Source: Callorhinchus milii (lineage: Eukaryota). Taken from it: 64,000 nt of DNA. The number at the start of each line of letters is the position of its first letter. Positions within the stretch are counted from its first letter, which is position 1. The notes beneath the pieces were generated by a model. It had not been told where the DNA came from. It saw only the letters and a program-made list of their open reading frames with translations, and did not search any database. The position numbers and the translations under genes are program-made. Positions 870-61,265 of this stretch are shown here, in pieces. Location of the stretch: assembly GCF_018977255.1 (NCBI RefSeq), contig NW_024704742.1, forward strand, positions 56,298,001-56,362,000, in the 5' to 3' direction.

Positions 870-1029
870 CTTGTTTTTGTCCAACTTATCTAACGTAAGT
901 AACCAGCTATGTGTTCAGAAAACTGGCCACTGTGATATGATTAACTCATCTTTGGTTTCTATAGTAATCTTTCTGAGCATTATGTTATGTGATGGCAAAG
1001 AGGCAAAAATAGGCAACGGAGTTTCAAAC
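870..1029 (-). pseudogene. Exon, junction of repeats 4 and 5 (FETPLPIFASLPSHNIMLRKITIETKDELIISQWPVF*THSWLLTLDKLDKNK)
   Basis: Acceptor cctttttttag, donor AAG|gtaac; one TGA at 915-917; LPIFASL ~ PGK C-terminal LPGVDAL, then gapless resemblance to N-terminal [23 protein letters not shown]. Confidence 0.75.
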
Positions 1030-1139
1030 CTAAAAAAAGGCCCTGCTTCTGACATCAGATTTATGCGATCAGAAATCAACACACTACGATTTGTTCTCAT
1101 GTAATCCGGAGGTGACAGCAGGGTAACTATTTTGTTCTC

Positions 1140-1290
1140 CCAGTGATTTCACATACCTATAAATGCAACAGTTCGTGATCACGTTTTTGTTCCACATGCC
1201 AGAATGTCCTGGGGATGTAGCTAGCCTCATCTGATCTTCTCTCTCTATTCACCAAGAATGTCAGAGACTTAAACCTGCCACCATTCATTG
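1140..1290 (+). mobile_element. Very degenerate PIF/Harbinger transposase fragment
   Basis: *FHIPINATVRDH...AR.PG resembles HARBI1-type GFHSINVQLVCDH...ARFPGS. Confidence 0.35.
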
Positions 1291-1360
1291 TTTTCATCCA
1301 ACAATGGAACACATGTAAATGACAAATATGCTTGCACGGAGAATCAAACAGGAAATGTAC

Positions 1361-1513
1361 CTACTGCATAATCGACACACAGTCTCTGAAATGATTCAGA
1401 ATGCTTTATTTAAGAAGCTCCCTTTCATCTGCTCAGAGACTGTGTCAACAAAGGGCACTATTTTGTGCTGGCTTGCTCATTTCCTGCTTTGGTGTGTGTG
1501 GAACCAGTTTATT
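1361..1513 (-). pseudogene. Exon, repeat 4 (INWFHTHQSRK*ASQHKIVPFVDTVSEQMKGSFLNKAF*IISETVCRLCS)
   Basis: Acceptor ttatcttgtgctgcag, donor AG|gtacat; phase 2 end matches next exon; TGA at 1477-1479 and 1396-1398; DTVSEQMK ~ DTATCCAK. Confidence 0.7.
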
Positions 1514-2244
1514 CTGCAGCACAAGATAACAAGCTTAGTTCAAGTGAAGAAAACCCTTCACCTGATGTAGCATTTGTGCAACGCAATATGAAAGTGTTCT
1601 GTGAAATCTTTTGATTGTTCACATGGGAAATAAAATTCAGTAGAGGGTCACTTGTGGTTCTTCATGTGTATGTGTTGTCTTCTGAAATCATTACTGAGGA
1701 TAGTTTTATTTTTCATCCTCTGAGAAGGCCACAATATATTCTATCATAGCTTCCACTAGGCTGGGGGAAGGGACATCCCCACTATCTACTGCTCCCTGCC
1801 ACTTGCTGTAAAGACCGATCACCTTGACCAGCCACTGGTGACTGGATACCACTTGCTTCTGCTTGTCTACCAATGTTGAGCTGCTTGATGCAGTACTTGA
1901 TGGCACAAGGCTGCTAAAGCTATTCCACACCAACAAGCCTTCTGAATGCTGTCCGGAATGCAGGGTCGGCAAAGATAAAGTGGCGCCCTGAGGGAAAGCT
2001 GACATTCCAGTGGCAGTATCTTGATTATCCTGAGCTGTTGGGGTACATTCAGACTCATGTCACAAGTTCAGCATATAACTAGTTATGGAGTCAAGGTGTT
2101 AAATCTATTTCCAACCAAATAATTCAAAACTTGTTAAAGATCAATCTGAAGTTACACTATAGATCTCAGCAACTAGTTTAATGCATTCAGTACAGCATTT
2201 AAAATAACTGAAACTTTGAACATACAACATTATGTCAGCCTAGA

Positions 2245-2813
2245 GTGGAGTCCTGTAGCTTAGTGGTTTGAGCACTCGCCTCGTAAGTGAAAGAACCTGG
2301 ATTTGATTCCTGGGCAGGGCAAAATATTAGGCAAGTTTCATTAATACACACACCTCTGTTTACCTAGCAGTAACTAGGAACCCGGGGTTGTTAGTAAATT
2401 GGCAGATCGCTTTCTATGGGCATAATAATCCCTTAAAAAATAATAATTTGGTCAATCAATCCACAACTGTTTGTAGAACACTGCTGTGCAGAATTGGCTG
2501 CTGCGTTTCACCCACAAAATATAATAAAATAAAAANTAATAATCCTTGCTTTTTGATATAGTGCTTTTCACGTCTTCGAAACTATTATTTGGGATTATTA
2601 TTATTATCAAGCATGTGGAGTAAGGAAACTTGCCCAAGGTTTCGCCCTGCCGGGAATTAAACCCAGGTCTCTTTCTTGTGAGGCAAGTGCTCTAACCACT
2701 GAGCTACAGGACTCCACAAATATACAGTAAATCCACTTTACAGTATATTCTTGAATGGCTTTGAGATATCTCGAACACGTGATAAGGCGCTTTCAAATGC
2801 AAGGATTATTATT
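2245..2813 (+). mobile_element. tRNA-derived DeuSINE-type SINE split by a nested opposite-strand SINE (about 2535-2716)
   Basis: GTGGAGTCCTGTAGCT head, Deu-like core, (ATT)n tail at about 2813; inner minus-strand copy flanked by duplicated aaatata. Confidence 0.85.
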
Positions 2814-3951
2814 ATGTAACATATCCACAGAAGGTTGCTGAATAATTGTTTTACCATCAATTTATAGAGAAACCATTTTCCGAATGACAACTTTCCTAAA
2901 ATTGACTTTATCAGTAATTTTCCAGTGTACATTTCAACCAGCCTTGATTGTCTTCTCAATGTCTCTTTTAGCTCTATCGTTGTCAGTGTTGCACATTAAT
3001 TAATTAAAGAACATTGCATTGTGTAGTTTCTTTATCAATTGCACTGCTTAGTTTCTAACCTCCAACAGGGTACGCATGTGTCAAAAAGTACACTCTTTGA
3101 TGAAATACACAATTGTAATGACAACACCACCAACGGTAAAAGCTTGTATTTATGTAGCACCCTTCAAGCAGGATAGAATCTCAGAGCCTGCAAGCCAATT
3201 GCAACAGGTCTCCTGCTGTCTGAGCATAGCAGAGATAGAAGCTCACTCAGAGAGGAATCCTAAAAGGTCCCCTCAATTAGAAAAGAGTCCGCCAAAGTCC
3301 CCTCACTCAGAAGAGACCCCCATGGCTCCCTCATAGAGAGTTTTGCCTGTTTTTGCACACTCTTTTCCCGGAATCTATCATTTACTTGTCAGTTCTCAAA
3401 TGACTTCATATGAAACAAATCATTACACGTAAATATGCAGCAAAGTGAGGACACAGAGCAAGTATAATTTCACTTGAATGATGAGTTTAGGATAGGAACA
3501 GTAATACATGTGCTGATCATCTCAAGAAATGTCTTATCTCAGGGTACTGCTGGTAAGAAAAATTCCGATGAGATTTAAATTGCACAGACACTCTGACAGC
3601 AGGCCAGTACATTAGAGATGACAAATGTCATATTTAAGATATCGCTTAGATCAGTTGTTGCATCTCCATAATACTTTGTGCAAATATAACATTTTACTGT
3701 AGGACTGGAATGTATCCAGCAAGCTGCCAAATTCACTGTGATGGTCATGGTAAACCTTGTATTTTCTACCTGAGTGCAGTTTTGTGTGTCAGCTGTGAAG
3801 TGCTTTGAGACGAATGGCAAAAAGTGTTATATCAAATGTGGGTATTACTATTAATAAAATTAAAATTATTATTGTCTGCTGAAGGTTAACATCCCTTATT
3901 TTCTAAATAGATTTTAAATCGGTTACCATGCAGTTGGATCTGGCTACTTAC

Positions 3952-4019
3952 ACCATGGTAATTGACAGTTCTGGGAATGCTCCTGAAGGCCGCTTCAGCA
4001 TGTTGTTCTTTTTCACTCC
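3952..4019 (-). pseudogene. Exon, repeat 4 (GSEKEQHAEAAFRSIPRTVNYHG)
   Basis: Acceptor gtgtcactttcag, donor |gtaagt; resembles PGK [22 protein letters not shown]. Confidence 0.7.
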
Positions 4020-4250
4020 CTGAAAGTGACACCAGAGATGATACATAACAATATAATTGGAGAAACAGAAAAATGGTAGACAGAAAGTAAGTTTGGTACA
4101 ATATAATGATTCATTTAACAGGACAGTGATCTCATCAAAGAACCACAATGAGGTAACGAAGAAAGGAAATCAATAATCTGTCTTGAAAAATACAATTAGA
4201 ACCATGCTAGGCAAAACTCATATCTAAATTGTACAAAGGCATATATTTAC

Positions 4251-4279
4251 CTTTACTGCTGTGTATTCTAAGGCCTAGC
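4251..4279 (-). pseudogene. Short exon, repeat 4 (LGLRIHSSK); 5' edge uncertain
   Basis: Donor AAG|gtaaat; phase 1 end matches next exon; LGLRI ~ MGLD(C/I). Confidence 0.45.
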
Positions 4280-4694
4280 CTGAATTAGTTATATTGAATC
4301 AGTATTAAAAATAACATATAATGATTATCTATGTACCTTTATGTAAGACACAGCATTCACTGTAACAAATAAGAGTGAGAAATTCATAAGAGACTTTCTC
4401 ACTTTTAACTTTAAGAATAAGTTATACATCCTAAATAAAGAAATGCACTCTTCATGCGACATGTCTTAATTTTGAATTATTAATCATGCTTTACATGTAT
4501 GATTTAAAAAAACAATAGCATGCCTCAGTGACATTTGAATTATGATAACTTCATAAATTTATTAGTATTTGCGTATCTGAACATAACTATTACTTAGTCT
4601 CTCGTGAGAGCATTGTGAGGAATAAGAGAATAGAGGGGTATGGGAGGCGAATACAGAGAGGCAATTAGGATGCTTGAAGGCTAATGCCGAGTAT

Positions 4695-5100
4695 AATAAT
4701 TATTATTATATTGGACATCGCATCTTTCACATCAGGTGGATATCTCAAAGCACCTCACAGGATACACTGTAAAGTGTAGTGACTGTGTATTTTGTAGATG
4801 AATACAGGGGCTGATTTGCATACAGGTTTGTTCCACAAACAATTATGAAGTGAATGACCAATTTTATTTGAGGGATTGTTGCCCAGAACACTGGGGCAAA
4901 CTTTCTTCTCTTTTCAAACAGTGGTATGGGATCTTTAACATCCATTTGAACAGACAGATGGGGCCTTGCTTTAGTATCACACAAAGCAAGGCACCTCTGA
5001 TAATACAGCACACCCTATCCCTGCAATGGAGTGTCAGTTTAGACTTATAAATTGTGAATTCTGAAGTGAGGCTTGAACCTTGATCTAGCAGCCTTCCTTC
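4695..5100 (-). mobile_element. Old SacSINE1-like DeuSINE
   Basis: Reverse complement contains GATGTTAAAGATCCCATACCACTGTTTGAA...TTCTGGGCAACAATCCCTC core and SINE tail. Confidence 0.7.
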
Positions 5101-5768
5101 CAAATACAAACTCCTTCAGATACCATAATGTATCTGTCTTTTAGATTAGGTGTTAAACGAAAACTCTATCTGCCTACGAAATGGATATAAAAGATCCAGT
5201 TTCGCGATTTGTGAAGTTTCTCCTGATCTTTTGGCTAAAAACTCTCCAGATTAATAGTCCATTAATCTCTATTAATCTGGATTAATAGATATTCTAAAAA
5301 ATAGAATTTTTTTAAGCAAGGAGATGGGATTCTGCCTGTGTGAGACCAGTATGAGCAAAAATAAATAAAGATTCCTCAAATAAAATTGGTCACTCACTTC
5401 ATGGCTGTTTGAGGAAGATTATTGTTATCGAGATGTCTCAAAACACTTCATAAGATACACTATAAAATGGCTTGAATGTGTATTTTGTGGATGAAAAGTG
5501 GTAGCAAATTCACACACAGCAGTTTCCCACAAACAGGCTGCATGCTTCACAAGTGGTACGTGTACTTGGAACTCTGTTTGGTTTGAGGTTTTTTTAAGCC
5601 AAGGAGATGGGATTCTGTCTGTTTAAGAACCAGTCCAAGCAAAAAAAATGTTTTAATTGTGTTAGAATATTGATTACTGTAACTTTTCACAAAAACAACA
5701 GGATAAACCACTTTACTGAAAGTGCATTTGCTGGATCACTGGAGCTAACTAATTTAGCCTGGGCATAC

Positions 5769-5904
5769 TGACTCTTTCTGACTGGTGCAGTTCATGCGAA
5801 TAATAGTTTCAAGTTATAACCATCTTTTTGCATAATGGGTTATAGAAAGTGCAGTATTTACATGCTGAGGTGCAATGATCAAATGATGAAGTCAACAATT
5901 TAGG
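5769..5904 (-). pseudogene. Exon, repeat 4 (LNC*LHHLIIAPQHVNTALSITHYAKRWL*LETIIRMNCTSQKES)
   Basis: Strong acceptor cagccttttcttag, donor |gtatgc; VNTALSITHYAK sits where the PGK helix before the LPVD motif is expected; two stops. Confidence 0.5.
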
Positions 5905-6279
5905 CTAAGAAAAGGCTGGAAGAATTGTATGCTGGAGTATAGAATAGAGATTTCATCAACAAAGGCAGTTTACATTTATATAGCACTTTCACACAAAGGT
6001 ATTTACACAGCTGACTAGGGACCAAGCTGGGAATGGGGATCTGGGATAGGGATGGTGGGGAGGGGAGAGGAGTAGCTGAAAGGCAAGTCAAAGGTCTCAA
6101 ATAGGGTTTTGAAGTGGGGAAGGAGGGAGCTGGGTAATGGGATTCTGGAATGGGATTCCAGAGAGTGGAAATAGAGTGGCTGAAAGTTTACTCCTCCAAT
6201 AGTGGGTTAGATCATTTGGGGATAGCAGCAGGTTGGTGTTTGCTGAGTGTGGAGAACATGGCTGGGGTAGAAGGGTTAT

Positions 6280-7580
6280 ACAACAACAACAACAAGATTA
6301 CATTTGTATAGCACCTTTTGCGTCGGGGGGGGGACGTCCCAAGGCACTGGACAGAGTACAGCATTTCAAACCCGAGCTGGGGTTGTGGGGGAGAAGGGAG
6401 GGGAGGGGAAGGGGGTGGCCGATGGCATGGTCGAACAGGAGGGTCTTGAGGCGGGACTTGAAAGAGGCTAAGGAGGGGGCGAGGCGGAGTGATTGAGGGA
6501 TGGGATTACAGAGATTGGGGGCAGAGTGGCTGAAGGCTCTCCCGCCAATGGTGGGGCGGCTGGGTCAGGGGACGTGGAGCAGGCCAGAGCTGGCCGAGCG
6601 GAGGGAGCGGGTGGGTTGATAGGGATTTAGGAGATTGCAGAGGTAGAGTGGGGCGAGGCCATGGGGGCTTTGTATGTGAGGACCAGTATCTTGATATGGA
6701 TCCTCTGAAGGGTAGCGAGCCACTGGACTTGGGCGAGAGTGGGGGAGATGGGGTCACGGAGTTTGGTGAGGGAGAGGACACGGGCTGCAGAGTTCTGAAT
6801 TATCTGCAGCCTGTGGAGGGAGGCGTTGGGAAGGCCGACAAGAGGGGCATTTGCATAGTCGAGCTTGGAGGTGATGAAGGCATGAACAAGAGTTTCAGTG
6901 GCCTGAGGGGTGAGGTAGTGGTGGAGTCGGGTGATGTTACGGAGGTGAGGGAAGGCAGAGCGGGTTATGGCTTGAAAGTGGGGAAGAAAAGACAGTTGAG
7001 GGTCGAACAAGACACCTCGGTTCCTGACTGGCTTGGTGAGTTGTAGTGAGCAACCATGGAGGTTGATGCTGTCAGGGCCTGAGGTGCTGAGGCTCTGGTG
7101 TGAGCCAATCAGGAAGGCCTCGGTCTTGTTCACATTCAACTATAGGAAATTTACCCTCATCCAGGACTTGATGTCCGACAGACAGTCTTTCAGGACAGCA
7201 GTGGTCCTGGAGTTGAGGGTGGAGGCAGAAAGATAGAGTTGGGAGTCATCCGCATACATATGGAAGTTGACCCCATGTCTGCGGATGATGTCACCAAGGG
7301 GGAGCATGTAGATATTAAAGAGGAAAGGGACAAGGACAGAGCCCTGGGGGACGCCAGATGTGACAGTGCAGGGGCTGGAGGAGAAACCGTTGGAGGCAAT
7401 GAAGTGGAGACAGAGAGAGAGATAGGAATCGAACCAGGCAAGGGCAGGTCTGTGAAGATTGAGTAAAGCGGAGAGGCGGTGTATGAGGATGGAGTGGTCG
7501 ACAGTTTCGAAGATAGCAGAGAGGTGGAGGAGGACAAGGAGGCAGAGGGAGCCCTGATCACAGATGTTCAGAATGTCATT
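6280..7580 (-). mobile_element. L2 LINE, 5'-truncated (RT C-terminal region and 3' tail); older L2 tail adjacent at about 5955-6270
   Basis: HMYADD codons near 7245-7262; ORF 6627-7139 with LVHAFITSKLDYAN...LQIIQNSAARVL; (GTT)n tail. Confidence 0.92.
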
Positions 7581-7624
7581 AGGAGGTCACAGAGCTAGAT
7601 TGGGGTGAAGATATGGAATGTTCT

Positions 7625-8040
7625 TTACATCAAAATAATTTTCATTTTGTAATGCCTTATGTCAAAACATCTCAAGCGCTGTGAGGTGTGATTTTTTTTA
7701 GCTAAACACAGATTTGCATCAACAAGGTCCCACAAGCAGCTGTGAGGTGAATAATCTATTAATCTGGAGAGTTCTTAGCCAATTAGGAGATCAGGAGAAA
7801 CTTTACAAGAGATCAGGAGAAACTTTACAAATCATGTCACTGGTTCTTTTATGTCAGTTTGATCAGGCAGATAGCATTTTGGTTTAACACCTAATCTAAA
7901 AGATAGGTTTTCCAACAATGCAGCTTTTCCCCAGTGCAATACCAAAGGGTAAACTCGACTATAAGATTGTGTCCTGATGTGGGTCTTGAACTCATAGATC
8001 TAACCCAAAGACATAAATTTCTGGTATCTTAACTAAGCTG
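7625..8040 (-). mobile_element. Old SacSINE1-like SINE with internal 22-bp tandem duplication
   Basis: Deu-like core on minus strand; gagatcaggagaaactttacaa twice at about 7787-7830. Confidence 0.65.
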
Positions 8041-8236
8041 CCATAATTATCACTGCATGTCCAACCTACAAAATATACAGTTAATTCACTTTATAGTATA
8101 TTCCGTGAAGCGCTTTGAGATGGCTTAAAGACGTGATAAAGTGCTATATCAATTGCACCAGGATTCAACCTAATTGGCCTGCAGAAAGGTAAGCATCTTC
8201 TGCTTAAACTCCACACCTCCAACTGGTAGAACAATT

Positions 8237-8239
<3 letters not shown>

Positions 8240-8269
<30 letters not shown>

Positions 8270-9780: not shown

Positions 9781-9794
9781 ACATTAGATAAATG

Positions 9795-11691: not shown

Positions 11692-14525
11692 CTAAAGTGA
11701 TATGGTTTTGGATTTTGATTTCAATCAGTGAAAGACAAAACAGGCCACAATATGAATGCAACATCATTACCTGTGTCAAAAATAACAATAATTGTATTTT
11801 CAAGAACCATTGCAAAGTTGCTGTATTTTTCAGATGAGATGTTAAGCCAAAGGTCCCATCTGTCTGATCAGGTAAATATTAAAGTTCCTGTGAGGCTGCT
11901 AGAAACGAGAAATGAGTTTCTCCCGCTGTTCTGTCCCAACAATCCCACAGATAAAATTGGTATTTGTGGGACACAGGTGGGTGCAAATTGGCTGCCACTT
12001 TCACCTACAAAATACAGTGACTACATATTGCATTAAATCTTGTGATGCATTTAGAAACATCCTTCCCACATGAAAATGCAAGAATGATTATTACTATTAT
12101 ATAATTTATCGCTTTTTTATTTAATAAAAAATCTGCTATGGTGTTATAACGTAAGATAAAAGCGGATTGTGTTGAAGACTGTGAAACAGATCAACGAAAT
12201 ACCAGATTTTTAAAAGGACCAAGACACTAAAACTTTACAGTATCTCCTGTGAAGCGCTTTGAGACATCACAAAGATGTCTTTATATTTCTATATTATATA
12301 TACATATAAATATTTATATTTATATCAAATGCAAGGATTATTATTATTAAATTCTTATTGAGATTGAACATTTCTGATGGAATAATTGTGTTTGTTTGTA
12401 TATTGACTTATACATTTTCTTCATTTCAGTGAATAAGTACAGCTTTGTAAACCTACTGAAATACTGGGAGTTTCAGAGACATTTGTAATGCATTCAGTTG
12501 TAAAATGAAAAATACTAAGCTTTTATTTTAAGGCTCAACAAATCAGAAGCAAATGTCAAAGGATTAGTTAAGCTAAATCTCTTAAGCACCGTACGTCTGT
12601 TTAACATTCCTTGTGTGATCAACTGTCATTTAATTAAAACCAGAGCTGAGAAAAATACAAATATGTTGAAGTATAAATGTCAGATAAATTAGTATCAAAG
12701 AAAATCTGAAAATGGGGTGAAATCCAAAAAGACACAATAATCCTTCAATCAGATTTGTGTTGGTTTGTGATTTTTATTTCCGGCTTGTAATTAAGAAACT
12801 AAGGTTAAGTCTTGCCTGCACGTATGACAGTATGGTTGAAAACCTATAATACCACATTGATATGTAACTACTAGTACTGTTCTTGGGCACAAAACAATAT
12901 TAAACCTACTTCAATGCAACCTCGTCATAGTTAATCCATTAAATCAAAATCAGCTGCAGAAAAATAACAATGTACCTTCACTTAACCTGTGGAAACATTT
13001 TAAAATACAAATATCAGTTATGCCTAATTGGTAGCACTCTCACTTCTTCATTAGGAGGTTCGGGGGTTTTCTCTGCAATATGTGAAATGTTAATATTGCC
13101 TGAATTATTTCATGGTTAAATTTCTAAAGAAAAGTTCGAAATTGCTGCTCAAAAGCAAATTTGTTGCATTTTTTGAATTGTCACAGTTTTTCATCTTGAT
13201 TGTTTGTGTTAAACTCTTCAATCCACAATAATAATAATCCTTGCATTTGATATAGCTCCTTATCGTGTCATTGAGACATCTCAAAGCGCTTCACAGAATA
13301 TACTGTAAAGTGAATTGACTGTATATTTTGTGGGTGATTAAAATTAACGATATTAGTACCATATCCAGTTTTTATAAAGTATGCTTTGAAAGGGTTTATA
13401 CTCTCTTGTTCTAGACTCATGCCTGTTCTAAAGTAATATTTAACGCTATGGCAGTCTTCATTGGTTAACTCATTTGACAAAGTTTCTCCTCAGGACCAAT
13501 GCACTCTGTATGAATTTCCCACCCTCCCATCCTTCCAGGGTCAGCTAAAGGGTACGAAATGTGCTCCCATGAAAAAACTGAACGGCTACATTTCTTTCAT
13601 GCATATACACAAATTGACAGTGACCGTGTATAGATGTTGCTCTGTGCCAGTCACTCTCTGCTTAACATTTAGCATCTTAACATTTAGACATTGCTTGGTT
13701 TTACACAAGAGAAGTTAAAAACAAACGAAAACCAAAAACCAATAATGTAGCTCATAGTAAAATTTGTCGCCTAGTTTCCTAGAACACGAAAAACAGTTTT
13801 CCAGTAGATCATTCTGAAGATTGCAACGTGGATCACAAAAGCCTGTCTGGTTGGATTACTGTCATTGTCTGAGAGAAGAGATAGTCTCTGCTGTTGCAAG
13901 AACTTATTCATAACTCAGACTGTATTAGAGTGACAATCTAAAAAGCCTGCGGGAGCAAGAAGCACCAGGGAATTGAACTAAGATTTGTTTCACTCTAACA
14001 AGCATTCACAAAAATAAAGGCATTGCAAATCTATCAAATAAAAGGTGAATGATGCCCCAGCCAGGCTTACAGGCAGCATTACCAGAGAATAAATTCAATG
14101 ACAGCCTATCACTTGGTCTTGTCACCTTCTTATTCATCCTGGCATTTGTTTCTTCTCATTATCATCAATTGGGGGCAAATATAACTAGGAACATGTTTCA
14201 AAATAATTCAGTGTCAGCTGGCAGTATTAGAAAATATTATTATCATGACACCTGTCAGTTGTTTCAGTTTCATTTCTTATAAAATAGTCTACAGTTATTT
14301 ATATCTATAGCTATTTCCTTCTCATAGGTTTATCACCTATTTAGGTTTTTCCTACCCTCTGATGTTCTAATTGTCTCCAGTTGGTTTGATAATCAGGGTG
14401 GCAGGTAAATAGTTAAATTTTGCAAATGAGTTGCAAGCAATTTCTTTTATTGTACAATTGAAATGCTACCATTTCACATTCTCTTCAGTCCAACCTAACA
14501 ATTAATTTCCCAACCTTGCCCTTAC

Positions 14526-14750
14526 AGTTTATATATGTAATGAACATTTGAGTGATATTTTCATGGAAAACACAACATAACTCATCTGTCTCTCTGTTTT
14601 TCGACATATTGCTCTGACTCTATGAGCTTTGGTTAATTATGTGCACTTCAACTTCTATTTGCAAATGCAAGTATTATTTGTTTCGCTTTCCACCATCTTG
14701 CACTGAAGAACAGTGAATGAGAATCTGCACCACATTTATGTCTTCATCAT
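14526..14750 (-). pseudogene. Exon, repeat 4 (DDEDINVVQILIHCSSVQDGGKRNK*YLHLQIEVEVHIINQSS*...ELCCVFHENITQMFITYIN)
   Basis: Acceptor tttgctttcatatcag, donor |gtaagg; phase 1 to 1; VVQILIH ~ VVLMSH and VFHENI ~ ILLENL; two stops. Confidence 0.7.
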
Positions 14751-20675: not shown

Positions 20676-20723
20676 CTTCCAATTAACCCATTCCAGCTTC
20701 TTTAACACCTTTGGTACAAGAGG
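20676..20723 (-). pseudogene. Exon, junction of repeats 3 and 4 (PLVPKVLKKLEWVNWK)
   Basis: Acceptor ttttaattatttctcag, donor AAG|gtaact; 48 nt, phase 0 to 0, open. Confidence 0.75.
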
Positions 20724-22119: not shown

Positions 22120-22210
22120 CAAACTCAAATGGCATTTTAACAGTGCAAGGGATAGTTTTTCAGCAAGGTAGAATTATCAGAAGCCTAAATCCAGTCTGAA
22201 GATTTCTTCA
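22120..22210 (-). pseudogene. Exon, repeat 3 (EEIFRLDLGF**FYLAEKLSLALLKCHLSL)
   Basis: Acceptor atctatacag, donor TTG|gtaact; phase 0 end; joined to next exon gives SLALLKCHLSLPLV ~ SLELLEGKVLPGV; adjacent TGA TAA. Confidence 0.65.
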
Positions 22211-22773: not shown

Positions 22774-22891
22774 CTTGCCTTGACTTTTCAGAAATGCCTG
22801 CACTTTGAAGGACTTTGCTGGAAACATATTTAGTGTAAACTTGTTTGCGCATTTGAACTTGTTCAATTGTGCACTAAACATTATCCAGTAC
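22774..22891 (-). pseudogene. Exon, repeat 3 (...TLNMFPAKSFKVQAFLKSQGK); probable internal frameshift; GC-type or mutated donor
   Basis: Acceptor gtttcaatttactag; LNMFPAKSFKVQAFLKSQG aligns without gaps to LDCGPESSKKYAEAVTRAK. Confidence 0.55.
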
Positions 22892-24001: not shown

Positions 24002-24043
24002 CTTGGTATCCTAAGCTTCAGAATGAAATGAGATTATTACTAA
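24002..24043 (-). pseudogene. Exon, repeat 3 (LVIISFHSEA*DTK)
   Basis: Acceptor ttctgtttttataatag, donor AAG|gtaatt; 42 nt; FHSEA*DT ~ FDENAKT. Confidence 0.55.
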
Positions 24044-27826: not shown

Positions 27827-28036
27827 ATTTTTAAAGCAACAATGCCCATGATTATCAACTGATTTGCATTGGAAAATGCTTCACCAAATTCTGTATTGTC
27901 ATGGTAACTGATTTTGTTTAGAAAAACTGTAGCAACCTTGATATTATCATCAGATCAGGTTATATCCCTGACAGCACTTCTCATCACACCCACATACAGC
28001 ACCCCCCTGAATGTATCAGCATGTCTGTTTACCAAT
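27827..28036 (-). pseudogene. Exon, repeat 3 (LVNRHADTFRGVLYVGVMRSAVRDIT*SDDNIKVATVFLNKISYHDNTEFGEAFSNANQLIIMGIVALK)
   Basis: Acceptor gcttcattacag, donor |gtgagt; 210 nt, phase 2 to 2; single TGA at 27955-27957; NANQLIIMGIVA ~ KVNEMIIGGGMA. Confidence 0.75.
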
Positions 28037-51054: not shown

Positions 51055-51199
51055 GTGGAAATATAACAAAGGGAAATTTGATATTTGGAGTCTCACTAGC
51101 GCAAATATGTTTGATATTCCAATTCAGTTCCAGCACTAAACAGCAAGAAGTTCAGGAAGAGTCCAAATGAGTAACTTAACTAACACCAGACAGATTTTG
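51055..51199 (-). pseudogene. Exon, repeat 3 (QNLSGVS*..SCCLVLELNW / LVRLQISNFPLLYFH); probable frameshift
   Basis: Strong acceptor tctttctttctcag, donor CAC|gtaact; RLQISNFPLLYFH ~ RASLSKLGDVYVN. Confidence 0.55.
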
Positions 51200-51598
51200 C
51201 TGAGAAAGAAAGATATTCAGATGGGATAGACATGTAGAAGACAAAATTTACCGTGATTGTTGTTTACACTCACAAAGACCTACACTACACTGGTACAGTT
51301 GGGATCTTGTCATCAAAGCATTCACATGAAAATATTTGTCTGGTAACCCCATTGTAGGGGTTCAGGTTATATTGGGATATATGTAATGGTGAAGGCATAA
51401 GGGCAGGTTATGAATGAAAATAAATACAATAATGCACTGAGCTTGTGAAATTTTAAGTGAATATTGTGAACAGCAAAAATGTGGAGGGCAAAGGGAAATC
51501 CCTCAATGTATATCTATCCTAATAAAACGACAACATCTGTCTGTTTGCACTTTGAAAAGTATCTCAATAACCGATTGACACAGAGAGATGATTCATAC

Positions 51599-51824
51599 CT
51601 GATCAGAAAATTCTTGTACTGGGAGTGATATGGGCATATTTGTTTTCAGATATCTCCTATCGTTCATGAGTTATGATCTAAAATGTATTTCAGTTCTGTG
51701 TTTTTCGCTGCAGTTGCAACTGGTGGCCGCCAAGTCAAAGTGGTGTTGTGACACTGTGCGTCACAAAACACGGTCGAAGACAAGCGGCGGCGGGAACAAA
51801 ATGAAGAACATAGTCGAAGCTAAT
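51599..51824 (-). pseudogene. Exon, start of repeat 3 (ISFDYV / ..ATAAKNTELKYILDHNS / RRYLKTNMPISLPVQEFSDQ); frameshifted
   Basis: Acceptor ttgccacag, donor CAG|gtatga; LKYILDH ~ IK(F/Y)(C/L)LD; the PGK-like pieces lie in three different frames. Confidence 0.6.
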
Positions 51825-52280: not shown

Positions 52281-52392
52281 CTGGAGGTTATCCTCTGGGA
52301 TATTGGCAACCACATTTATCTCCTGTTGTTTCTGAAATAGTTGTTCCCATTTATGTGCACCATATGTCAAGGAAGAAAGCCAATAAACAAAT
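52281..52392 (-). pseudogene. Exon, end of repeat 2 (FVYWLSSLTYGAHKWEQLFQKQQEINVVANIPEDNLQ)
   Basis: Donor CAG|gtaag; fully open; LSSLTYG..QLF..V ~ VSHVSTG..ELL..V. Confidence 0.75.
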
Positions 52393-52503
52393 CTAAATTC
52401 AAATCATTTGCTTTTAATTTAGTTATCTTAGTGACAGCACATAAGATCCTATTTTCAGGATCTAAGAACCACTAGGATTGTCTACAATCATTCAGTACAG
52501 CAC

Positions 52504-52606: not shown

Positions 52607-52771
52607 CTTAAATTCAACTTTAAATTGGTAGACGCTTTCCCCTGTTATTAAAAATAAACCATCTACCAAATTAAGATTGAATTTAGTATGAGCTACCTCC
52701 ATGAAGTGTGCTATATAAATGCAACATGTTGTTGAATCTTAAGAATGTCCACATTTCTGCAAGTTTTTTAC

Positions 52772-52941
52772 ATTTTCAGACCAAATACAGCTGAGAAGGT
52801 GGATTGTTGTTCCAGCATAATTAAATAGATTTAATTATTCCAACTGTTAAAACAACTTTAATCTTTTCAGTAAGCAATGTACTAGTCTTTTATGATGGGA
52901 ACTGACGTCTTATATTTCCTTCTCTGCTAAATTGCCTCATT
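52772..52941 (-). pseudogene. Exon, repeat 2 (..PS*KTSTLLTEKIK..KSI*LCWNNNP..)
   Basis: Acceptor tgttctgttgctag; resembles PKT..L..E.I..AKTIVWNGP; stops present; 3' edge uncertain. Confidence 0.5.
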
Positions 52942-54552: not shown

Positions 54553-54984
54553 TTATAAATGAGTGCAGAATTTAACAGTGATCAAAATTCTGTCGAATTT
54601 ACAAGACTTAAGACAATAGTCTTAAAGAAATTAAAACATTTTAGCCTTCCTATTCACTTTCCGTCATTTTTTTAAATTTGAAATTACTTTTTCCTATTTT
54701 CTTCTTATTTTTCCTACTTTCGATTCATATAAATCTGTGTTGCCATATTAAATTCTGTTGTTCTTTTAGCTCCCACTGCCCATTTTGGTAAAAAAAATCC
54801 TTTAACAGTAATTTTCATTGGGTGAAGAATGTCATAACAGGTCTGGTTTGCCATTACTGAAAACCTAAAGATCGATGATTGACAAGGTCAGATCCATGAT
54901 ATGATCCGAGCAACCTCTGCCATGAGTCAATGAGGGAATAGTAACTGTCAAAGTACAAACATGGCTATCATGCTCTAATAGCTA

Positions 54985-55320
54985 AGAAAGGTTTTGATAA
55001 AGTTAACAGAAATAGGCTTTTCCCACTGGTTGGGGAGTTCGTAATGAGGAGATATAAACGTAAGTTAGCGACTAGGGGATTGAAAAGAGAATTTAGGAAT
55101 ATCAACTTCATGCAAAGGGTAGTGAGATTGTGGAATTCGCTGCATGAAGCGATGATTGAATCAGCATTCAAGAGGAAGACAAACCTTCACATGAGGGAGA
55201 TGGGAATAGGAGGATATGTGAGGCAGCAAGGAATGGGTGAGGACTTGTGTGGAGTATGAACTCCAGCATAAATTGGTTGGGGCAATTGGCCTATTTCCAA
55301 GCTGTACATAGTTTGTAAAT
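54985..55320 (+). mobile_element. CR1 3' end
   Basis: FMQRVVRLWNSL. Confidence 0.75.
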
Positions 55321-55789
55321 CTAGCTGTTCTACAGGAGGAGAACGACAGAAGTCATAGGCCCTCTATGTCACAGGGCAACACCATGCAGCCCTCTCCAAC
55401 TTACCCACAAGTATTGGAAGCATTTGGACCAGCTATTGTATGAAGTATATGGAGGAGTCTCAACTCTTCACTGTCAAATATTCACAGGGACACATGACAT
55501 GTATACCACTTGTTCTCTTGATCCTGTCACACCCACCTTCCTGCTCATCCATAAACCTAAATCAAGGGACAAGCTAACCCATCCAGTTAGTTATATCACT
55601 TAATGTACCCAGCTAAGTAAGACTTTCAATACTTGTCTCTATAACATCTTATATATAAAACAATCCTTGCATTTGATATAGATGTTTTTCATATCAAGAG
55701 GATGTCTCAAGGTGCTTCACAGAATTTATTGTAAAGGATTTACACGTAATCTGATTTGCAACATATCACCTTAATATTATTCAACCAGT

Positions 55790-56120
55790 TGCAATAACAA
55801 CAACAAATCACACTTGTATAGCGCCTTTCACATCAGGAGGAAATCCCAAGGCACTGGACAGTCAGGAATCTGCACCCGAGCTGGTAGTTGGGATCAAGAG
55901 GGGTGGAGGATGGGGTGGGTAGACGTAAGAGGGGGACCAAAGGCATGGTCAAAGAGGAGGGTCTTAAGCTGGGTCTTGAAGGAGGCAAGGAAGGGGAAGA
56001 GGTGAAGTGACTGTGGAATGGAATTCCAGAAGGTGATGGCAGAGAGGCTGAAGGCCCACCAGCCAATGGTGTGGCGGGCAAGCTGGGTGACATGAAGCAG
56101 GCTGAGATAAGAAGCGAGAG
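55790..56120 (-). mobile_element. L2 3' fragment
   Basis: FWNSIPQSL..SFKTQLKTLLF; tail. Confidence 0.85.
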
Positions 56121-56184
56121 ACACTTAGTCATCTCTCAAAAAGGTAGCATTCATACTTGGTTCACAAAATCTGCAATTAAATAC

Positions 56185-56355
56185 CTTGTATTCATTGATG
56201 CCTGTTGATTCTATTGTTATTGCTTTGTATAAATTCCCTGAAATAAATTTGATGATACAAAGCATTTGTAAGTACAGCATTAGTGGAACAGGAAACAAGC
56301 CAACAATCAGATTTGTTATGGTGATCTTTGCTGTGACATGTTCATACATGAGACA
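56185..56355 (-). pseudogene. Exon, repeat 2 (CLMYEHVTAKITITNLIVGLFPVPLMLYLQMLCIIKFISGNLYKAITIESTGINEYK)
   Basis: Acceptor cctacttttactag, donor AAG|gtattt; 171 nt fully open, phase 0 to 0; NLIVG ~ (N/E)(L/M)IIG and YLQML..LY ~ FLKVL..LF. Confidence 0.72.
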
Positions 56356-56530
56356 CTAGTAAAAGTAGGTACAAATCATACCTAATTGCAAGCCAAATAA
56401 CAGTGTGGGTATTCCTTATATAAATATACCTTGTTTCAGAATGTGATGAAATGCATTCTGTCAAGAGATAGAACCTTCATGTGCCAAAGTGTCCGAAAAA
56501 TCTTGGGTCTTATTGAAATAAATCTCTATT

Positions 56531-56851
56531 ATAATAATAATAATCCTTGCATTTGATATAGCGCTTTTCATGTCGAGAGGACATCCCAAAGCGCTTCACA
56601 GAACACACTGTAAAGTGAATTGACTGTATATTTGTGGGCGAACGCGGCAGCCAATTGCGCATAGCAATGTCCCACAAACAGTCGTAGATTGAAAATGACC
56701 AATTTTTATTATTGATTTTGGTTTTGGAGGGATTATTATTAGGCTCTGTGTGGAGTAAGGAAACTTGCCTAAGGTTTCGCCCTGCCTGGAATTGAACTCA
56801 GGTCTCTTGCTTGCAAAGCGAGTGCTCTAACCACCTAGCTACAGGACTCCA
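56531..56851 (-). mobile_element. Young full-length SINE
   Basis: Near-identical to the other young copies; TSD ctctatt (56524-56530 and 56852-56858). Confidence 0.95.
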
Positions 56852-57856
56852 CTCTATTCTAGTTGAATGAAATTGTTTTACTCTCCTGGCAACACCAAGT
56901 TATTCTTATCATTCCATTAGGCATAATGTTCTTGCTGATTGTTTAATACACCACACATCATTAGACAGTTCTGTCAGTGCTTGGACGTTCTTTTGTGCCT
57001 CAGGTCAGAAATCTAACCTTGTGTCGCCTGAATGGATTGAGTCGGTATATTGCTGCAGCAGTTATATCAAACCAGAAAGGACAGCACATATCTAAAGTGT
57101 AATGTCTCCTTTCTTTTTTAAGTGTAAAAACAGCTATTGTAAATGTTTTACAGTTTGTAACAAAGATTCTTGTGGGCTACTTGGGAGTTGACATGAATAT
57201 ACTCAACCCAACATATCCAATCTTACTCCATTTAAAAAAAGTTCAGAGAGTCTTCCCATTTCAGCATCATGTGTCTCTTAAACAAATCCAGCAACCTGAC
57301 ATCAATCACTCATTTTGGTATTTTGTTGATAAGCTTAGGTATAAAGAAACAATTCCCAGTGTCTGTGCTAAGCTTCTTCTTCACATCACTGAACCTGTGA
57401 TGTCTGGTGTTATTGCTTTGGCGTATCTGTAAGTATTTTTTCTGGGTTACTTTCTTTATAGTATCTACTATACCACAATAAAGTCCCAACAAGACCTAGA
57501 AATATAATGTCGATCCTTGACCAGGGCTACTTTTTCTTCAACTTTGCCACATTGCTCATGTTGTCTTACACCATCAAAATCCTCATTCACACCTTTCTTC
57601 TCTCAACTAGACTTTTCCAAATCACTCCTAATCAGTCTCCATAGTTTCATCATCCAAAAGTTCCAGCTGCAGAAAGAATGATTAACAACAACTTGCATTT
57701 ACATAGTGTCCTTCACATGTGATAGTATCTTGGAGAGCTGAAAAGATTTGCCAAGAACTCATAAACTGGAGGAACAAACTTGCTGACTGACCTATTCCTA
57801 TCTACCTTTGACCTGCGTTCATATAACTGGACATCATTGTAAAGAGAAGCTCTTAC

Positions 57857-58063
57857 TTGCCTTAACAGGGGAGTGAGAAACTTGGAAGAAGCAAACAAAT
57901 AACATATGTTTTCTGCACCAAAGAACTGAAAATAAAGAATCTTCTGGTTGCACCCTGAAGAAGTTGACAGTTGCGTAAAACCAATGCAAAATTATCCCTG
58001 TTACTAAGTGCATAAAGCTATCACCAAGCACCAAAAACAGACACACAAAACATCCCTGGTGTT
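57857..58063 (-). pseudogene. Exon, repeat 2 (..LVTGIILHWFYATVNFFRVQPEDSLFSVL / GAENICYLFASSKFLTPLLRQ); probable 1-nt frameshift at about 57920-57922
   Basis: Acceptor tttctgcatttag, donor CAA|gtaag; gapless match to GFLMKKE..SPERPFLAIL; removing one T restores SVLGA and phase 0. Confidence 0.68.
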
Positions 58064-58104
58064 CTAAATGCAGAAATGCAGCTTGGCATATCAAATTAAT
58101 TTAA

Positions 58105-58560
58105 GAGGGAAGCTGGCAGGGTTTAAGAAATGAAAGCCAGAAGTGAGATGTTGGCAGGAGCTGAGGAGGATGGCTATCATTTTGTCCTTGTTTAGCTGAA
58201 AAAATCTGTAGGTCATCCAGAACTTGATGTCTGACTGACAGCAATCTGAACATCAATGGACCTGGAATATGGAGTGGAAACAAAATTGTGTAAATTAACC
58301 CCATAGTTGCGAATTATGTCACCAAGAGGGAGCACGTAGATGAAGAAAAGCACCGAGTGTGAAGCCCTGGGGTGCCCCATGGTTGACTGTGTGAGAATGA
58401 GAGAAGTAGCCATTGGAAGAAGTGGAGCTGATGGGCTATGTAGGATGGGAGCCAGAAACTTTCAGTCCCATGTTGGTACATGACAGAGAGGAGAAGTGAT
58501 CATGGCGGGTAGAATGGTCAACAGTATAGAAAGCCACATTAATTGATCCAAGAAAAGTGA
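58105..58560 (-). mobile_element. Old L2 RT fragment
   Basis: [25 protein letters not shown]. Confidence 0.75.
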
Positions 58561-58647
58561 GTGCTGAGCTCTGGCACATGTGTTTTATCTCAACACTGTA
58601 GAATCCACTTTCAGTGGATTGTTTCAAGATCGAAACAATTGTAATAC

Positions 58648-59170
58648 ATTAGAATTGTATTGAACTTTCAAATGAGAATGTTTCAGTCACTTAGGTTAAT
58701 TTCAGGATTTGACTGGTGACTGGAGCATCGTTGCAAACTTTACAACCTATGTCATGGATATTATTTACAATACATAGATGAATCATTTACAATCTTTTAT
58801 AACAAAATAATTTGACATTAATGTCTTTTGTATAAGGATGAATAAATGTTTCAACAAGAGCTATCCGAAAAGTCAGCCAATAAAAGTTCTGCATGTTTTA
58901 TGCCAGAACACATTACGAATATAAGCCTGATTATGTGTCCATAAATTGCTTGAATCTTGAGTTAGAAGTTCCAACTCTACCAAATATTAAAACCATTACT
59001 TCAAATCCAATGCTGATAGATTTGATTTAAAATACTTTGTTACAAGATCCAAGGACAGCAGCATATACATATTACTTTACTATTCTAGCCTGCACTGACC
59101 CAAAACAAGTATGTTTTAATAATGATTTGATAAAAGCAGGATCTTTTACAACATGATGAGAAAGTTAATT
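58648..59170 (-). pseudogene. Heavily degraded exonic block, junction of repeats 1 and 2 and N-terminal part of repeat 2; boundaries unclear
   Basis: VVKDPAFIKSL.. and IQAIYGHIIRLIFVMCS pieces at the expected position; several frames and stops. Confidence 0.3.
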
Positions 59171-59462
59171 AAGGTTTAAGATTTAAATGATCAATTGCCT
59201 TATGAAAGATTACAAATGAATGAAGAACTCAGTGCAGAAGACTGTTAAACTGTGGAATGTTGTGAGATGCAAATGGCTATCGAGTTAAAAGGGAATTGGA
59301 TTATGTTATTGAGTATTTATGTTCTTGAAAAAAATAATCTTAAACGTTATGGAAAAGGAGCAAAGGAACAAGATGAAATAGTGGAGGAGTTAGCACCAGC
59401 ATAGAAGTCATGGACTGAATGACCTCCTTTGCTGTAAATGTTCTTTTGATCAGATATCAGAG

Positions 59463-59795
59463 ATACAACAACAACAAATCATCAGCAGGATGTCTCAAGG
59501 TGTAAATTAACCCCATATTTGCGAATTATGACACCAAGAGGGAGCACAGTGAGGGATCCACACCTGAGCTGGTGGATGGGATCAGGCGGGTTGGAAGGCG
59601 GGGAGGGTAGGGGTAGGAGATTGAACAAAGGCACAGTCGAAAAGGAGCGTCTTAAGATGGGTCTTGAATGAGGCAAGGGAGGGGATGAGCCAGAGGGACT
59701 ATGGGATGGAGTTCGAGAGGGAGTGGCAGAGAGGCTGAAGGCCTACCCACCAATGGTGGAGTGGGGAAGGCAGCGTGGAGCGGGGAGGTGGGGTA
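59463..59795 (-). mobile_element. L2 3' fragment containing a 48-bp templated insert
   Basis: L2 tail and LWNS-type region on minus strand. Confidence 0.8.
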
Positions 59796-59805
59796 AATTA
59801 GACAC

Positions 59806-59954
59806 TTCCCAAGAAACATGTACAGTGCAGGAGCAATAACAACCTTCATCTTCAATCTTAGTTTCTGCAATTTACTGCAAAACAGTTGTTGCACAGACAC
59901 AAGTCATTTCTGTTTGTCCTTTGTCCTTCATCAATATCAGAAAAAGATTGCCCC
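59806..59954 (-). pseudogene. Exon, repeat 1 (GGNLFLILMKDKGQTEMTCVCATTVLQ*IAETKIEDEGCYCSCTVHVSWE)
   Basis: Acceptor ctttgcatgctgtag; phase 1 start matches previous exon; AETKIEDEGCYCS....SWE gapless to AKWNTEDKVSHVS....SLE. Confidence 0.6.
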
Positions 59955-60328
59955 CTACAGCATGCAAAGTTTCTGAGTATAAAGTAGGACTTAGTTTAAT
60001 GCAGATTTTTCACACATCATATTTTGCATGAAGTTATAGATCCAATTGAACATTCATGGGAACCAACATTGATTTTTGGGCTCTTTACTTCCATATTATG
60101 GAAGACAAGAAATCAGTGCTTTCATCTGGGAAGAAGCAAAAATATTAAATGGAAGTAGGTAATTTCTTTACTATATGATAAAATAAACATGTTGTTTCAT
60201 TGTTTATTGTAGAAGAGGAACATGTTGTTTTTCTCGATTCACAGACGTTGTTTGTCACCACATCACACACTGCAGCCAGAACCAGTATGTAATCAAAAAG
60301 GACAAAAGCAATTAGAGTCGCCTGTTAC

Positions 60329-60506
60329 CTTTCAAACCTTTCTTAAAGGGTCTTAAAATAAAGATAACTACCATTGGATGTTGGAGTCCTTTCCAAAATA
60401 AAACCAGAAAAGGTTACTTGAGGTCACAATAAATTACACGTACATCTGCACGCCCTGCTATTAACTGGATAGGTAATAGTTTGATGGTGGTAACTACAAG
60501 GTGTCT
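60329..60506 (-). pseudogene. Exon, repeat 1 (..TTIKLL..K*PFLVLFWKGLQHPMVVIFILRPFKKGLK)
   Basis: Donor AAG|gtaaca; best PGK-like match in the window (I.WNGPMGVFE..PFAKGTK); alternative acceptor at 60493. Confidence 0.72.
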
Positions 60507-60596
60507 CTTTGCATAAAAGGCTTATATAATTGTGAGTTGTTATTGGTCATTCAAGCCAAATCCATAACGCAGCATGTTAGAATAATCATGACGTAC

Positions 60597-60712
60597 ATTG
60601 TTCTGTATGCAAACCACCAATTTGCTCCATTATGGAAGTCCATCTCTTTGTGTTCCTGGAAGCTATTTTCTGGTTGAATTTTTTTCCCTTTTCAGTTGCT
60701 GTGCAAAATTAT
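60597..60712 (-). pseudogene. Exon, repeat 1 (NFAQQLKREKNSTRK*LPGTQRDGLP*WSKLVVCIQNN)
   Basis: Acceptor tgtcacttaattag, donor |gtacgt; GLP*W ~ GIP..W. Confidence 0.5.
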
Positions 60713-60990
60713 CTAATTAAGTGACAAGGTCTTAGAATGGAAGGCTAAAAGACAAATGATAAGTGCTTTTATCATACATCAAGATAGGGAAAGCGCAATA
60801 ATCAACAACAAAATGGATGATGGAATTGTATGAAGTACAGGCAAGTCAACAGGAACAGAGAAAATCTCCCTTAATTGATAGTCATCTATTGTACAGCTCA
60901 TATGGGATATTATGATATGAACCACAAATTTCTCCAATTCTGATTAACAGGTGGGGCAGGCTAGAATCAATAGGGTTATGCTCCACTCAC

Positions 60991-61090
60991 TGTCATGTTT
61001 TTCAGTCTTTGTGATGCACGCTTATAATGTGTTCTTCAATGTTATGCTCTGGTAAATCTGCTGACATTTAAAGTGAAGTTTAGCACGAAA
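60991..61090 (-). pseudogene. Exon, repeat 1 (FRAKLHFKCQQIYQSITLKNTL*ACITKTEKHD)
   Basis: Donor |gtgagt; phase 0 to 1 fits both neighbours; KTEKHD ~ KAEKNG. Confidence 0.5.
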
Positions 61091-61167
61091 CTCATCGGAT
61101 AAAGTAACAAGTGAATAAAGTTGGATAAAGTATTAAACTAAATAAAGTATTAAAGTGAATTAATCAC

Positions 61168-61265
61168 TGGAGGAGAATAATATGAGCCAGCCACCAAAGG
61201 TCAATTAGATAACATCCAATGCTTTTGAAGGCATTTTGCTGCTTCTTAATCAGCTAATTTAATGG
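61168..61265 (-). pseudogene. Exon, repeat 1 (IKLAD*EAAKCLQKHWMLSN*PLVAGSYYSPP)
   Basis: Acceptor aattttatattgcag; IKLAD* ~ AKVADK (TAA is one change from AAA); N*PLVAG ~ NEMIIGG. Confidence 0.55.

What the first reader, a model, noticed from the sequence alone, without database searches (positions are those of the whole stretch)
870..61265. Gene appears pseudogenised while splice architecture is still readable
Seen: in-frame stops in many exons (TGA 915-917, 1396-1398, 1477-1479, 27955-27957; TGA-TAA in 22120-22210; TAG in 24002-24043; more at 5.8, 14.6, 52.8 and 59.9-61.3 kb). Probable frameshifts occur at about 57921 and in 51599-51824, 51055-51199 and 22774-22891. Several exons remain fully open with good splice sites (129-187, 20676-20723, 52281-52392, 56185-56355). 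Inference: lineage-specific gene loss (possible unitary pseudogene). The stops are compatible with single changes from CGA/CAA/CAG/TGG/AAA.
Basis: partly seen in the sequence, partly recalled or inferred. Interest (0 to 1): 0.7.

Follow-up and report, generated by a model that had tools for sequence, protein, structure and literature searches.

The report
Faint fossil of divergent dynein gene
Most of the supposed broken exons cannot be told from ordinary non-coding DNA, but two neighbouring pieces resemble a dynein motor protein, so this is probably the very old, dead remnant of an unusual dynein heavy-chain gene in a cartilaginous fish.

Summary
The named stops exist. Where two other DNA runs were laid (parts of 50-61 kb) they match the assembly without gaps, so assembly error is unlikely there. 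Its 18 pieces hold 36 stops in 1129 best-frame codons; random unique DNA gives 39 ± 5. The minus strand has no excess of strong splice donors or open frames. One 'frameshifted exon' (51599-51824) is a dispersed repeat. No database search found a homologue. A dynein heavy-chain profile does pick out two adjacent minus-strand pieces (1361-1598, 870-1029) that match the AAA4 small domain in order. They are the best of 3305 tile pairs in 264 kb (blind expectation 0.04-0.16), and 0 of 6652 random pairs reach them. The other pieces give only non-significant motif hints. A DNHD1-like gene and about 20 canonical dynein loci lie elsewhere in the genome. Best reading (0.55): an old intron-containing relic of a divergent dynein, possibly DNAHX/class 12 or class 13. 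No orthologue could be retrieved, so 'unitary' is unproven.

The parts
1361..1598 (-).
   Evidence: Best ungapped minus-strand hit in 155 kb, 24.6 bits; controls reach the same level. Sub-model score 8.5 bits. 4 TGA. Single copy within 700-1560. Acceptor 72nd, donor 91st percentile.
1157..1208 (-). Piece C: possible 52-nt exon between A and B; if spliced in, it keeps A in frame with the dynein-matching frame of B
   Evidence: Acceptor 94th and donor 99th percentile. Phase worked out by hand (1 in 3 by chance). No profile match of its own. Inferred.
870..1029 (-).
   Evidence: Top hit of 3569 windows with the full model and with sub-models (E 2.7 and 0.049). Stops at 1024, 985, 946, 907, 886.
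129..187 (-). Possible next exon (start of stalk); open in two frames
   Evidence: Donor at the 100th percentile. Chains at profile 2557-2578 but adds only chance-level score.
14514..14750 (-). Candidate relic exon, AAA3-like motif (GGKRN...VHIINQ against GGGRN...VIAINE, profile 2040-2086); 2 stops
   Evidence: 4.5 bits, top hit of the piece; AAA3 subsets not significant. Lead only.
27827..28036 (-). Candidate relic exon with VLYVG (AAA3 P-loop-like by eye); TGA 27955-27957
   Evidence: Donor 98th percentile; no significant profile score. Lead only.
52740..52930 (-). Candidate relic piece with LLSCIWS (consensus LFSCIWS, profile 1817-1825); 3 stops in the best frames
   Evidence: 17.7 bits, top hit of the piece. 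Four-piece AAA2 set reached by 14 of 918 random sets, one of six sets tried; 37 of 544 with a mixed profile. Lead only.
59850..61265 (-).
   Evidence: Single copy; matches two other DNA runs. No hit in 1.84 billion proteins for 60560-61162, PDB or Pfam. 10 stops in 253 best-frame codons.
51512..51823 (.).
   Evidence: 1646 candidates genome-wide, 40 scored, about 80% identity; CpG o/e 0.99; depth about 4500 at 51650.
1560..2200 (.). Old dispersed repeat just 5' of piece A; by rounded coordinates it may overlap A's first codons
   Evidence: 27 other places at 64-86% identity.

Best explanation
The minus strand holds the long-dead, intron-containing remnant of a non-canonical dynein heavy-chain gene: DNAHX/class 12, class 13 or another orphan class. 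Shown: two adjacent single-copy pieces at 0.87-1.6 kb resemble the AAA4 small domain in the right order and spacing and carry 4 and 5 stops in the matching frames; lesions checked at 50-61 kb are genomic. Inferred: the gene ran from right to left, with AAA1-AAA3 further up the window and stalk, AAA5-6 and C-terminus to the left of it. An early inactivating change released selection; substitutions, small indels and LINE/SINE insertions then built up until stop density approached background, and only the most conserved motifs and some splice sites remain. It makes no motor protein today.
For: A+B chain 47.7 bits against 0 of 6652 random unique pairs (max 42.1; Gumbel p 3.7e-5; reversed order 36.9). 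Blind scan: best of 3305 tile pairs over 264 kb on both strands, 49.1 against next 43.7; expected 0.16 in all pairs, about 0.04 for the window's 916. Second profile, from 110 metagenomic dynein ORFs: 7 of 1247. All 18 reader pieces chained: 1 of 520, 1 of 242 and 0 of 146 random sets reach the score. Simulation: a DNHD1-like exon decayed by 0.2-0.35 changes per site leaves only 9% and 4% of 180-nt tiles at 23 bits or more, a canonical exon 100% and 96%; few detectable pieces is what a divergent class predicts. Kollmar 2016 (PMC5100056) says classes 11-13 show very low TBLASTN similarity to known heavy chains. The DNHD1-like gene and canonical dyneins lie elsewhere. No near-identical second copy.
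Against: No single piece is significant alone: controls match A's 24.6 bits; B has E 0.049 with one of 40 sub-models. Window-permutation test of the pair: 6 of 300. Order permutation: p 0.26-0.31 for 26 loosely chained pieces; 14 of 551, 14 of 237 and 5 of 143 for spliced chains. AAA1-2 and AAA3 subsets fail. No convincing AAA5, AAA6 or C-terminal match in the 45 kb to the left. No hit in Pfam, PDB, phmmer on 1.84 billion proteins or the word search, although RefSeq/UniRef animal proteins are in that collection. The dynein idea came from recalled motifs, piece bounds were set after first hits, several scoring schemes were tried, and my first by-eye domain assignment of these pieces was wrong.
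Confidence: 0.55

Rival explanations
1. There is no gene. The window is repeat-rich, gene-poor non-coding DNA; the reader assembled exons from chance AG/GT sites and chance frames, and the AAA4 match is a lucky pair.
For: Stop density, open frames and strong donors are at background. One exon is a repeat. All database searches were blank. The blind expectation for the best pair is 0.04-0.16. No consistent strand skew in unmasked DNA.
Confidence: 0.27
2. A real decayed multi-exon gene of another, fast-evolving family, with the dynein likeness accidental.
For: Several pieces have donors at the 98th-100th percentile. Further exon-like pieces with good sites continue to the left, at about 1.6 and 8.8 kb before the window start. 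Earlier notes report other decayed genes on this contig (unchecked).
Against: No family hit for any piece; the only similarity found is to dynein.
Confidence: 0.13
3. A decayed duplicate of a canonical dynein (classes 1-9) or of DNHD1, that is a duplicated rather than unitary pseudogene.
For: The genome holds a broken-looking DNAH7-like stretch elsewhere (G000:C176), so dynein duplicates do decay here.
Against: That stretch scores 52-62 bits on Pfam AAA_6 while this locus does not ring with AAA_6 or AAA_8. A canonical exon needs about 0.7 changes per site to fade this far. The pieces are no closer to the DNHD1-like exon than chance.
Confidence: 0.03
4. A live gene whose stops and frameshifts are assembly errors.
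For: Lesions at 0.1-28 kb and at 57921 were not checked against other runs.
Against: Contigs of two other DNA runs match 50-53, 56.0-56.5 and 59.7-61.3 kb with 0-3 other letters and no gaps; four runs hold 0.93-0.94 of the words of 56870-61640. Dozens of stops in all frames cannot be base-call errors.
Confidence: 0.02

Closest known systems
DNAHX, a non-motile dynein heavy chain (Chai et al. 2025, PMC11785096; abstract, Results, Discussion, figure legends and supplement text read; figures not held). Probably Kollmar's class 12: my inference from the shared odd stalk and outer-arm-type origin, not stated in what I read.
   Same: Highly divergent heavy chain, reported from sponges to frogs and bony fish, absent in reptiles and mammals, so an ancestral jawed vertebrate should have had it. 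[quoted passage not shown]
   Different: DNAHX is intact and was isolated from sea-urchin sperm; this is a near-saturated relic. No DNAHX sequence could be compared. 'Shark' and 'Callorhinchus' do not occur in that paper's main text.
Class-12 and class-13 dynein heavy chains (Kollmar 2016, PMC5100056; sections 8, 9, 14, passages and supplement passages read; figures not held)
   Same: Holozoan or metazoan classes of 4800-6000 residues with only weak similarity to canonical heavy chains. The paper also notes fragmented dynein pseudogenes in fish and bird genomes.
   Different: Class not determined here. 'Shark' has 0 hits in the main text and 'Callorhinchus' 0 in the supplement text.
DNHD1 (class 11)
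   Same: Divergent orphan heavy chain with insertions (PMC11785096, Discussion).
   Different: A DNHD1-like gene with an open exon of over 1000 codons lies at G000:C1156 (the label DNHD1 rests on recalled motifs and its low profile scores). The window's pieces are not closer to it than chance.
Vertebrate unitary pseudogenes in general (recalled: GULO, UOX), and the WDR95-like relic noted earlier on this contig (e1-7811856, unchecked)
   Same: Intron-containing, single copy, many lesions.
   Different: Those align clearly to living orthologues; this one is far more eroded and its orthologue is not in hand.

Membership tests
Unitary pseudogene | Homology to a functional gene in other species | tested here: inconclusive
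   Only profile-level similarity of two pieces to dynein; no orthologue retrieved.
Unitary pseudogene | Disabling lesions in the homologous reading frame | tested here: met
   4 TGA in piece A and 5 stops in piece B, provided the dynein frames are right.
Unitary pseudogene | Lesions are genomic, not assembly errors | tested here: inconclusive
Unitary pseudogene | No intact copy elsewhere in the genome | tested here: inconclusive
   No near-identical copy for three stretches and no protein-level paralogue for two pieces (weak hits checked). A distant intact class-12/13 gene is not excluded.
Unitary pseudogene | Sits at the syntenic position of the orthologue | not testable with these tools
   No related genomes are held; no neighbouring gene was recognised in 100 kb on either side.
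Dynein heavy chain | Six AAA+ modules in order | tested here: inconclusive
   AAA4 small domain supported; AAA1-3 sets not significant; AAA5-6 not found in 45 kb to the left.
Dynein heavy chain | Linker, tail, and stalk with microtubule-binding domain | tested here: inconclusive
   No match above background from -45 kb to +110 kb; the simulation shows low power for a decayed divergent class.
DNAHX / class 12 | Reciprocal best hit and tree placement with XP_041462850 | not testable with these tools
   No DNAHX sequence could be fetched.
DNAHX / class 12 | Insertion between helices H6 and H7 of the AAA4 small domain | tested here: inconclusive
   Hand count: 74 or 93 residues between WF and N with piece C, 57 or 76 without, against 54; size and position depend on the exon model.
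DNAHX / class 12 | Degenerate AAA1 motifs and stalk insertions | not testable with these tools
   AAA1 and stalk exons were not identified.
Class 13 | Long AAA5 and low-complexity C-terminal extension | not testable with these tools
   These regions were not located.
DNHD1 / class 11 | Closer similarity to DNHD1 than background, and no other DNHD1 locus | tested here: not met
   DNHD1-like locus at G000:C1156; tblastn best E 2.5; the three chain tests with that sequence alone: 745 of 1029, 499 of 549, 508 of 679. Only its linker-AAA2 part was available.
Canonical dynein classes 1-9 | Exon-level hits to Pfam AAA_6 and AAA_8 | tested here: not met
   128 and 78 matches genome-wide, none at C1:56.3 Mb.

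The most novel reading that the evidence does not exclude
The relic is the orthologue of DNAHX, the non-motile sperm dynein so far reported only in externally fertilising animals. It died long ago in the chimaera or whole cartilaginous-fish lineage, which fertilise internally (recalled). That would be a loss independent of the one in amniotes, and a natural test of the proposed link between DNAHX and external fertilisation. Shared lesions in sharks and rays would date the loss near the origin of claspers.
Probability: 0.25. Interest if true: 0.6.

Novelty: new member of a known kind. Interest (0 to 1): 0.33.

Why it matters
Dead genes are common, and a relic this eroded says little alone. It matters if it is DNAHX or its class-13 counterpart: the DNAHX paper ties the gene's patchy distribution to external fertilisation on presence and absence only, and a fossil copy in an internally fertilising fish would show real loss rather than a gap in annotation and allow dating. 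I found no mention in print (searches; most subscription journals and the papers' figures are not covered, and Kollmar's figure 4 or S10 may list this species). It is also a caution for the scan: stops, open short frames and AG/GT ends in AT-rich vertebrate DNA occur at these rates by chance.

Tried and rejected
Pfam on 24, 14 and 4 translations: nothing above cut-off. PDB sequence searches on six pieces: no dynein, best E about 1. Searches were run on the wrong frame of 60480-61160 and say nothing about the candidate frame. phmmer on 1.84 billion proteins for 60560-61162: 0 hits. Word search for the 41.0-41.6 kb piece among 1833-5833-residue proteins: 171 candidates, none scored. ESM Atlas on two open pieces: no usable hit.

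Expression: no RNA holder listed. Two runs guessed to be RNA were laid; joints were swamped by repeats and X9 showed low depth in exonic and intronic bins alike. No evidence either way.

My first by-eye mapping (5.8 kb as microtubule-binding domain, 0.9-1.5 kb as AAA5, 28 kb as AAA4) was rejected: an AAA4 model from this genome's own dyneins did not hit 28 or 14.6 kb, and the full profile placed 0.9-1.6 kb in AAA4. Pieces at 42.4-42.65 kb and 41.0-41.7 kb looked protein-like but are not significant (621 of 1418). The second-best pair (89-90 kb) lies in LINE-like frames. Weak genome hits at C1:98.46 Mb, C370 and C8:9.25 Mb showed no dynein exon.

No CpG island or recognisable neighbour gene in unmasked DNA within 100 kb; wider flanks were not obtained. 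The repeat check of 56880-58280 got no answer. Rfam gave nine tRNA-like hits only, read as SINE heads. Earlier findings by place, relatives, sequence and words gave nothing on this locus. dN/dS could not be estimated without an orthologue. Structure prediction was not run: no alignment, and pieces under 80 residues.


Full report
Setting. The window is G000:C1:56298001-56362000 in a 992-Mb assembly. Earlier notes on the same contig call the organism elephant shark (unchecked, consistent with genome size and repeats). About 109 of 264 kb around and in the window are repeats by self-comparison; the window has LINE reverse-transcriptase frames and nine tRNA-like hits that I read as SINE heads. 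No neighbouring gene was recognised within 100 kb on either side.

The observation. Two other DNA runs from one study match the assembly over 50.3-51.6, 52.0-53.2, 56.0-56.5 (one run) and 59.7-61.3 kb with 0-3 other letters and no gaps. Lesions at 0.1-28 kb and at 57921 were not covered by that test, and 43 difference rows were not shown.

Is it more than chance? Pieces as short as the open exons are open by chance with probability 0.12-0.81. Stop-poor segments are no denser on the window's minus strand (4.26 per 10 kb) than on its plus strand (4.52) or in the flanks (4.8-5.2). Strong donors number 13 minus against 16 plus, strong acceptors 34 against 27. Each stop codon is one change from 7-8 sense codons. 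The 'frameshifted exon' 51599-51824 is a CpG-rich dispersed repeat, and 22774-22891 lacks a GT donor.

Homology searches. Pfam, PDB, phmmer on 1.84 billion proteins, a word search and the Atlas found nothing for the pieces tried; searches used a wrong frame. Some translations recalled dynein heavy-chain motifs, so I fetched 120 proteins, nearly all class-7-type heavy chains, and built profiles. In 3569 six-frame windows the top hit was 862-1020 on the minus strand (NHITVASFL against NYVTPTSYL, profile 2496-2548). Close behind came 1486-1596 (HFHIAL...CCRINWF against LHVVL...CCTIDWF, 2436-2472). These are successive parts of AAA4 and lie in gene order, about 470 bases apart. Neither is significant alone.

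Tests of the pair. Chained, they score 47.7 bits; 0 of 6652 random unique pairs reach this (max 42.1, Gumbel p 3.7e-5), and the reversed order gives 36.9. A permutation of window positions gave 6 of 300. A blind scan of 3305 tile pairs on both strands of 264 kb ranks the pair first, 49.1 against 43.7; the extrapolated expectation is 0.16 for all pairs and about 0.04 for the window's 916. A second profile from 110 metagenomic dynein ORFs gave 7 of 1247 under a stricter linking model. All 18 reader pieces chained in order are reached by 1 of 520, 1 of 242 and 0 of 146 random sets, and by 14 of 551, 14 of 237 and 5 of 143 order permutations.

Results against. A looser order test on 26 pieces gave p 0.26-0.31. 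Without A, B and 129-187 the pieces are not significant (28 of 145). Of six subsets, two contain the pair (0 of 1201, 0 of 1357), one AAA2 set gave 14 of 918, and three failed (621 of 1418, 51 of 674, 932 of 1043). Four AAA3 tests failed, and the six tests with DNHD1-based profiles gave 37 of 544 at best. Motifs at 52.8 kb (LLSCIWS), 14.7 kb (GGKRN...VHIINQ) and 28 kb (VLYVG) fit the order but remain leads. No convincing AAA5, AAA6 or C-terminal match was seen in 45 kb to the left. Piece bounds were set after first hits and several scoring schemes were tried, so the blind figure is the fairest one.

Which dynein? Pfam AAA_8 and AAA_6 find 78 and 128 exon matches at about 20 canonical-looking loci and none here. 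A divergent, DNHD1-like gene with an open exon of over 1000 codons lies on C1156; the window's pieces are not closer to it than chance. In simulation a canonical AAA4 exon stays detectable to about 0.5 changes per site (84% of tiles at 23 bits or more), whereas the DNHD1-like exon falls to 9% and 4% at 0.2 and 0.35. Two detectable pieces among 26 therefore fits a decayed non-canonical class. Kollmar 2016 (PMC5100056) describes classes 12 and 13 as full-length but barely visible to TBLASTN. Chai et al. 2025 (PMC11785096) describe DNAHX as non-motile, present from sponges to frogs, absent in reptiles and mammals, with an AAA4 small-domain insertion and a proposed link to external fertilisation. 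A 52-nt candidate exon at 1157-1208 would keep A and B in frame and give 74 or 93 residues between the WF and N motifs against 54 in the consensus; without it the count is 57 or 76 (hand count). This is compatible with DNAHX but model-dependent. No DNAHX sequence could be compared.

How it works. It does nothing as a protein gene: pieces A and B carry 4 and 5 stops in the matching frames. The inferred history is loss of selection on a flagellar, probably non-motile or regulatory heavy chain, followed by long neutral decay and repeat insertion. No near-identical copy exists for three tested stretches, and protein searches with two pieces found no paralogue.

Verdict. Observation partly confirmed; interpretation partly supported. 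Divergent dynein relic 0.55, no gene 0.27, other dead gene 0.13, decayed canonical or DNHD1 duplicate 0.03, assembly error 0.02. It is a new member of a known kind, interest 0.33, rising to about 0.6 if it proves to be DNAHX (probability 0.25). Literature searches showed no report of this locus; figures of the two papers, which may list this species, were not visible.

Noticed in passing
L043 = G000:C176:41000-50999: Pieces of a DNAH7-like heavy chain (AAA1, AAA4 lid, stalk, AAA5) within 10 kb that look frameshifted; possibly a second, younger dynein pseudogene or a poorly assembled contig.
   Followed up: partly
L047:4064-7753 = G000:C1156: Open frame of 1229 codons, of which about 1075 encode linker-AAA1-AAA2 of a divergent, DNHD1-like heavy chain, on a small 20-kb contig.
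   Followed up: partly
L019, about 1.6 kb and 8.73-8.79 kb left of the window start, minus strand: Two short exon-like pieces; the second has strong acceptor and donor scores (7.9, 6.2). They may continue the relic.
   Followed up: partly
   Followed up: yes
L023:7701-8039, minus strand (about 42 kb left of the window): 113-codon open frame in unmasked DNA that reads like a protein C-terminus; no Pfam test was made in this frame (one search read another frame).
   Followed up: no
L022 end and L021 start, about 29.5-30.2 kb left of the window, minus strand: 236 codons with one stop, the most stop-poor unmasked segment listed near the window; unexplained.
   Followed up: no
L021, about 18.0-18.3 kb left of the window: Short CpG-containing unmasked stretch with a CCGGAAATGACGTC motif (ETS/CRE-like by recall); promoter-like or an unmasked repeat.
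   Followed up: no
G000:C370:5303-5398 and 54580-54675: Two matches with identical scores on opposite strands about 49 kb apart, suggesting an inverted duplication on that contig.
   Followed up: no
window 42377: Four-base deletion in run X1 but not X3, in single-copy DNA: an indel polymorphism.
   Followed up: no
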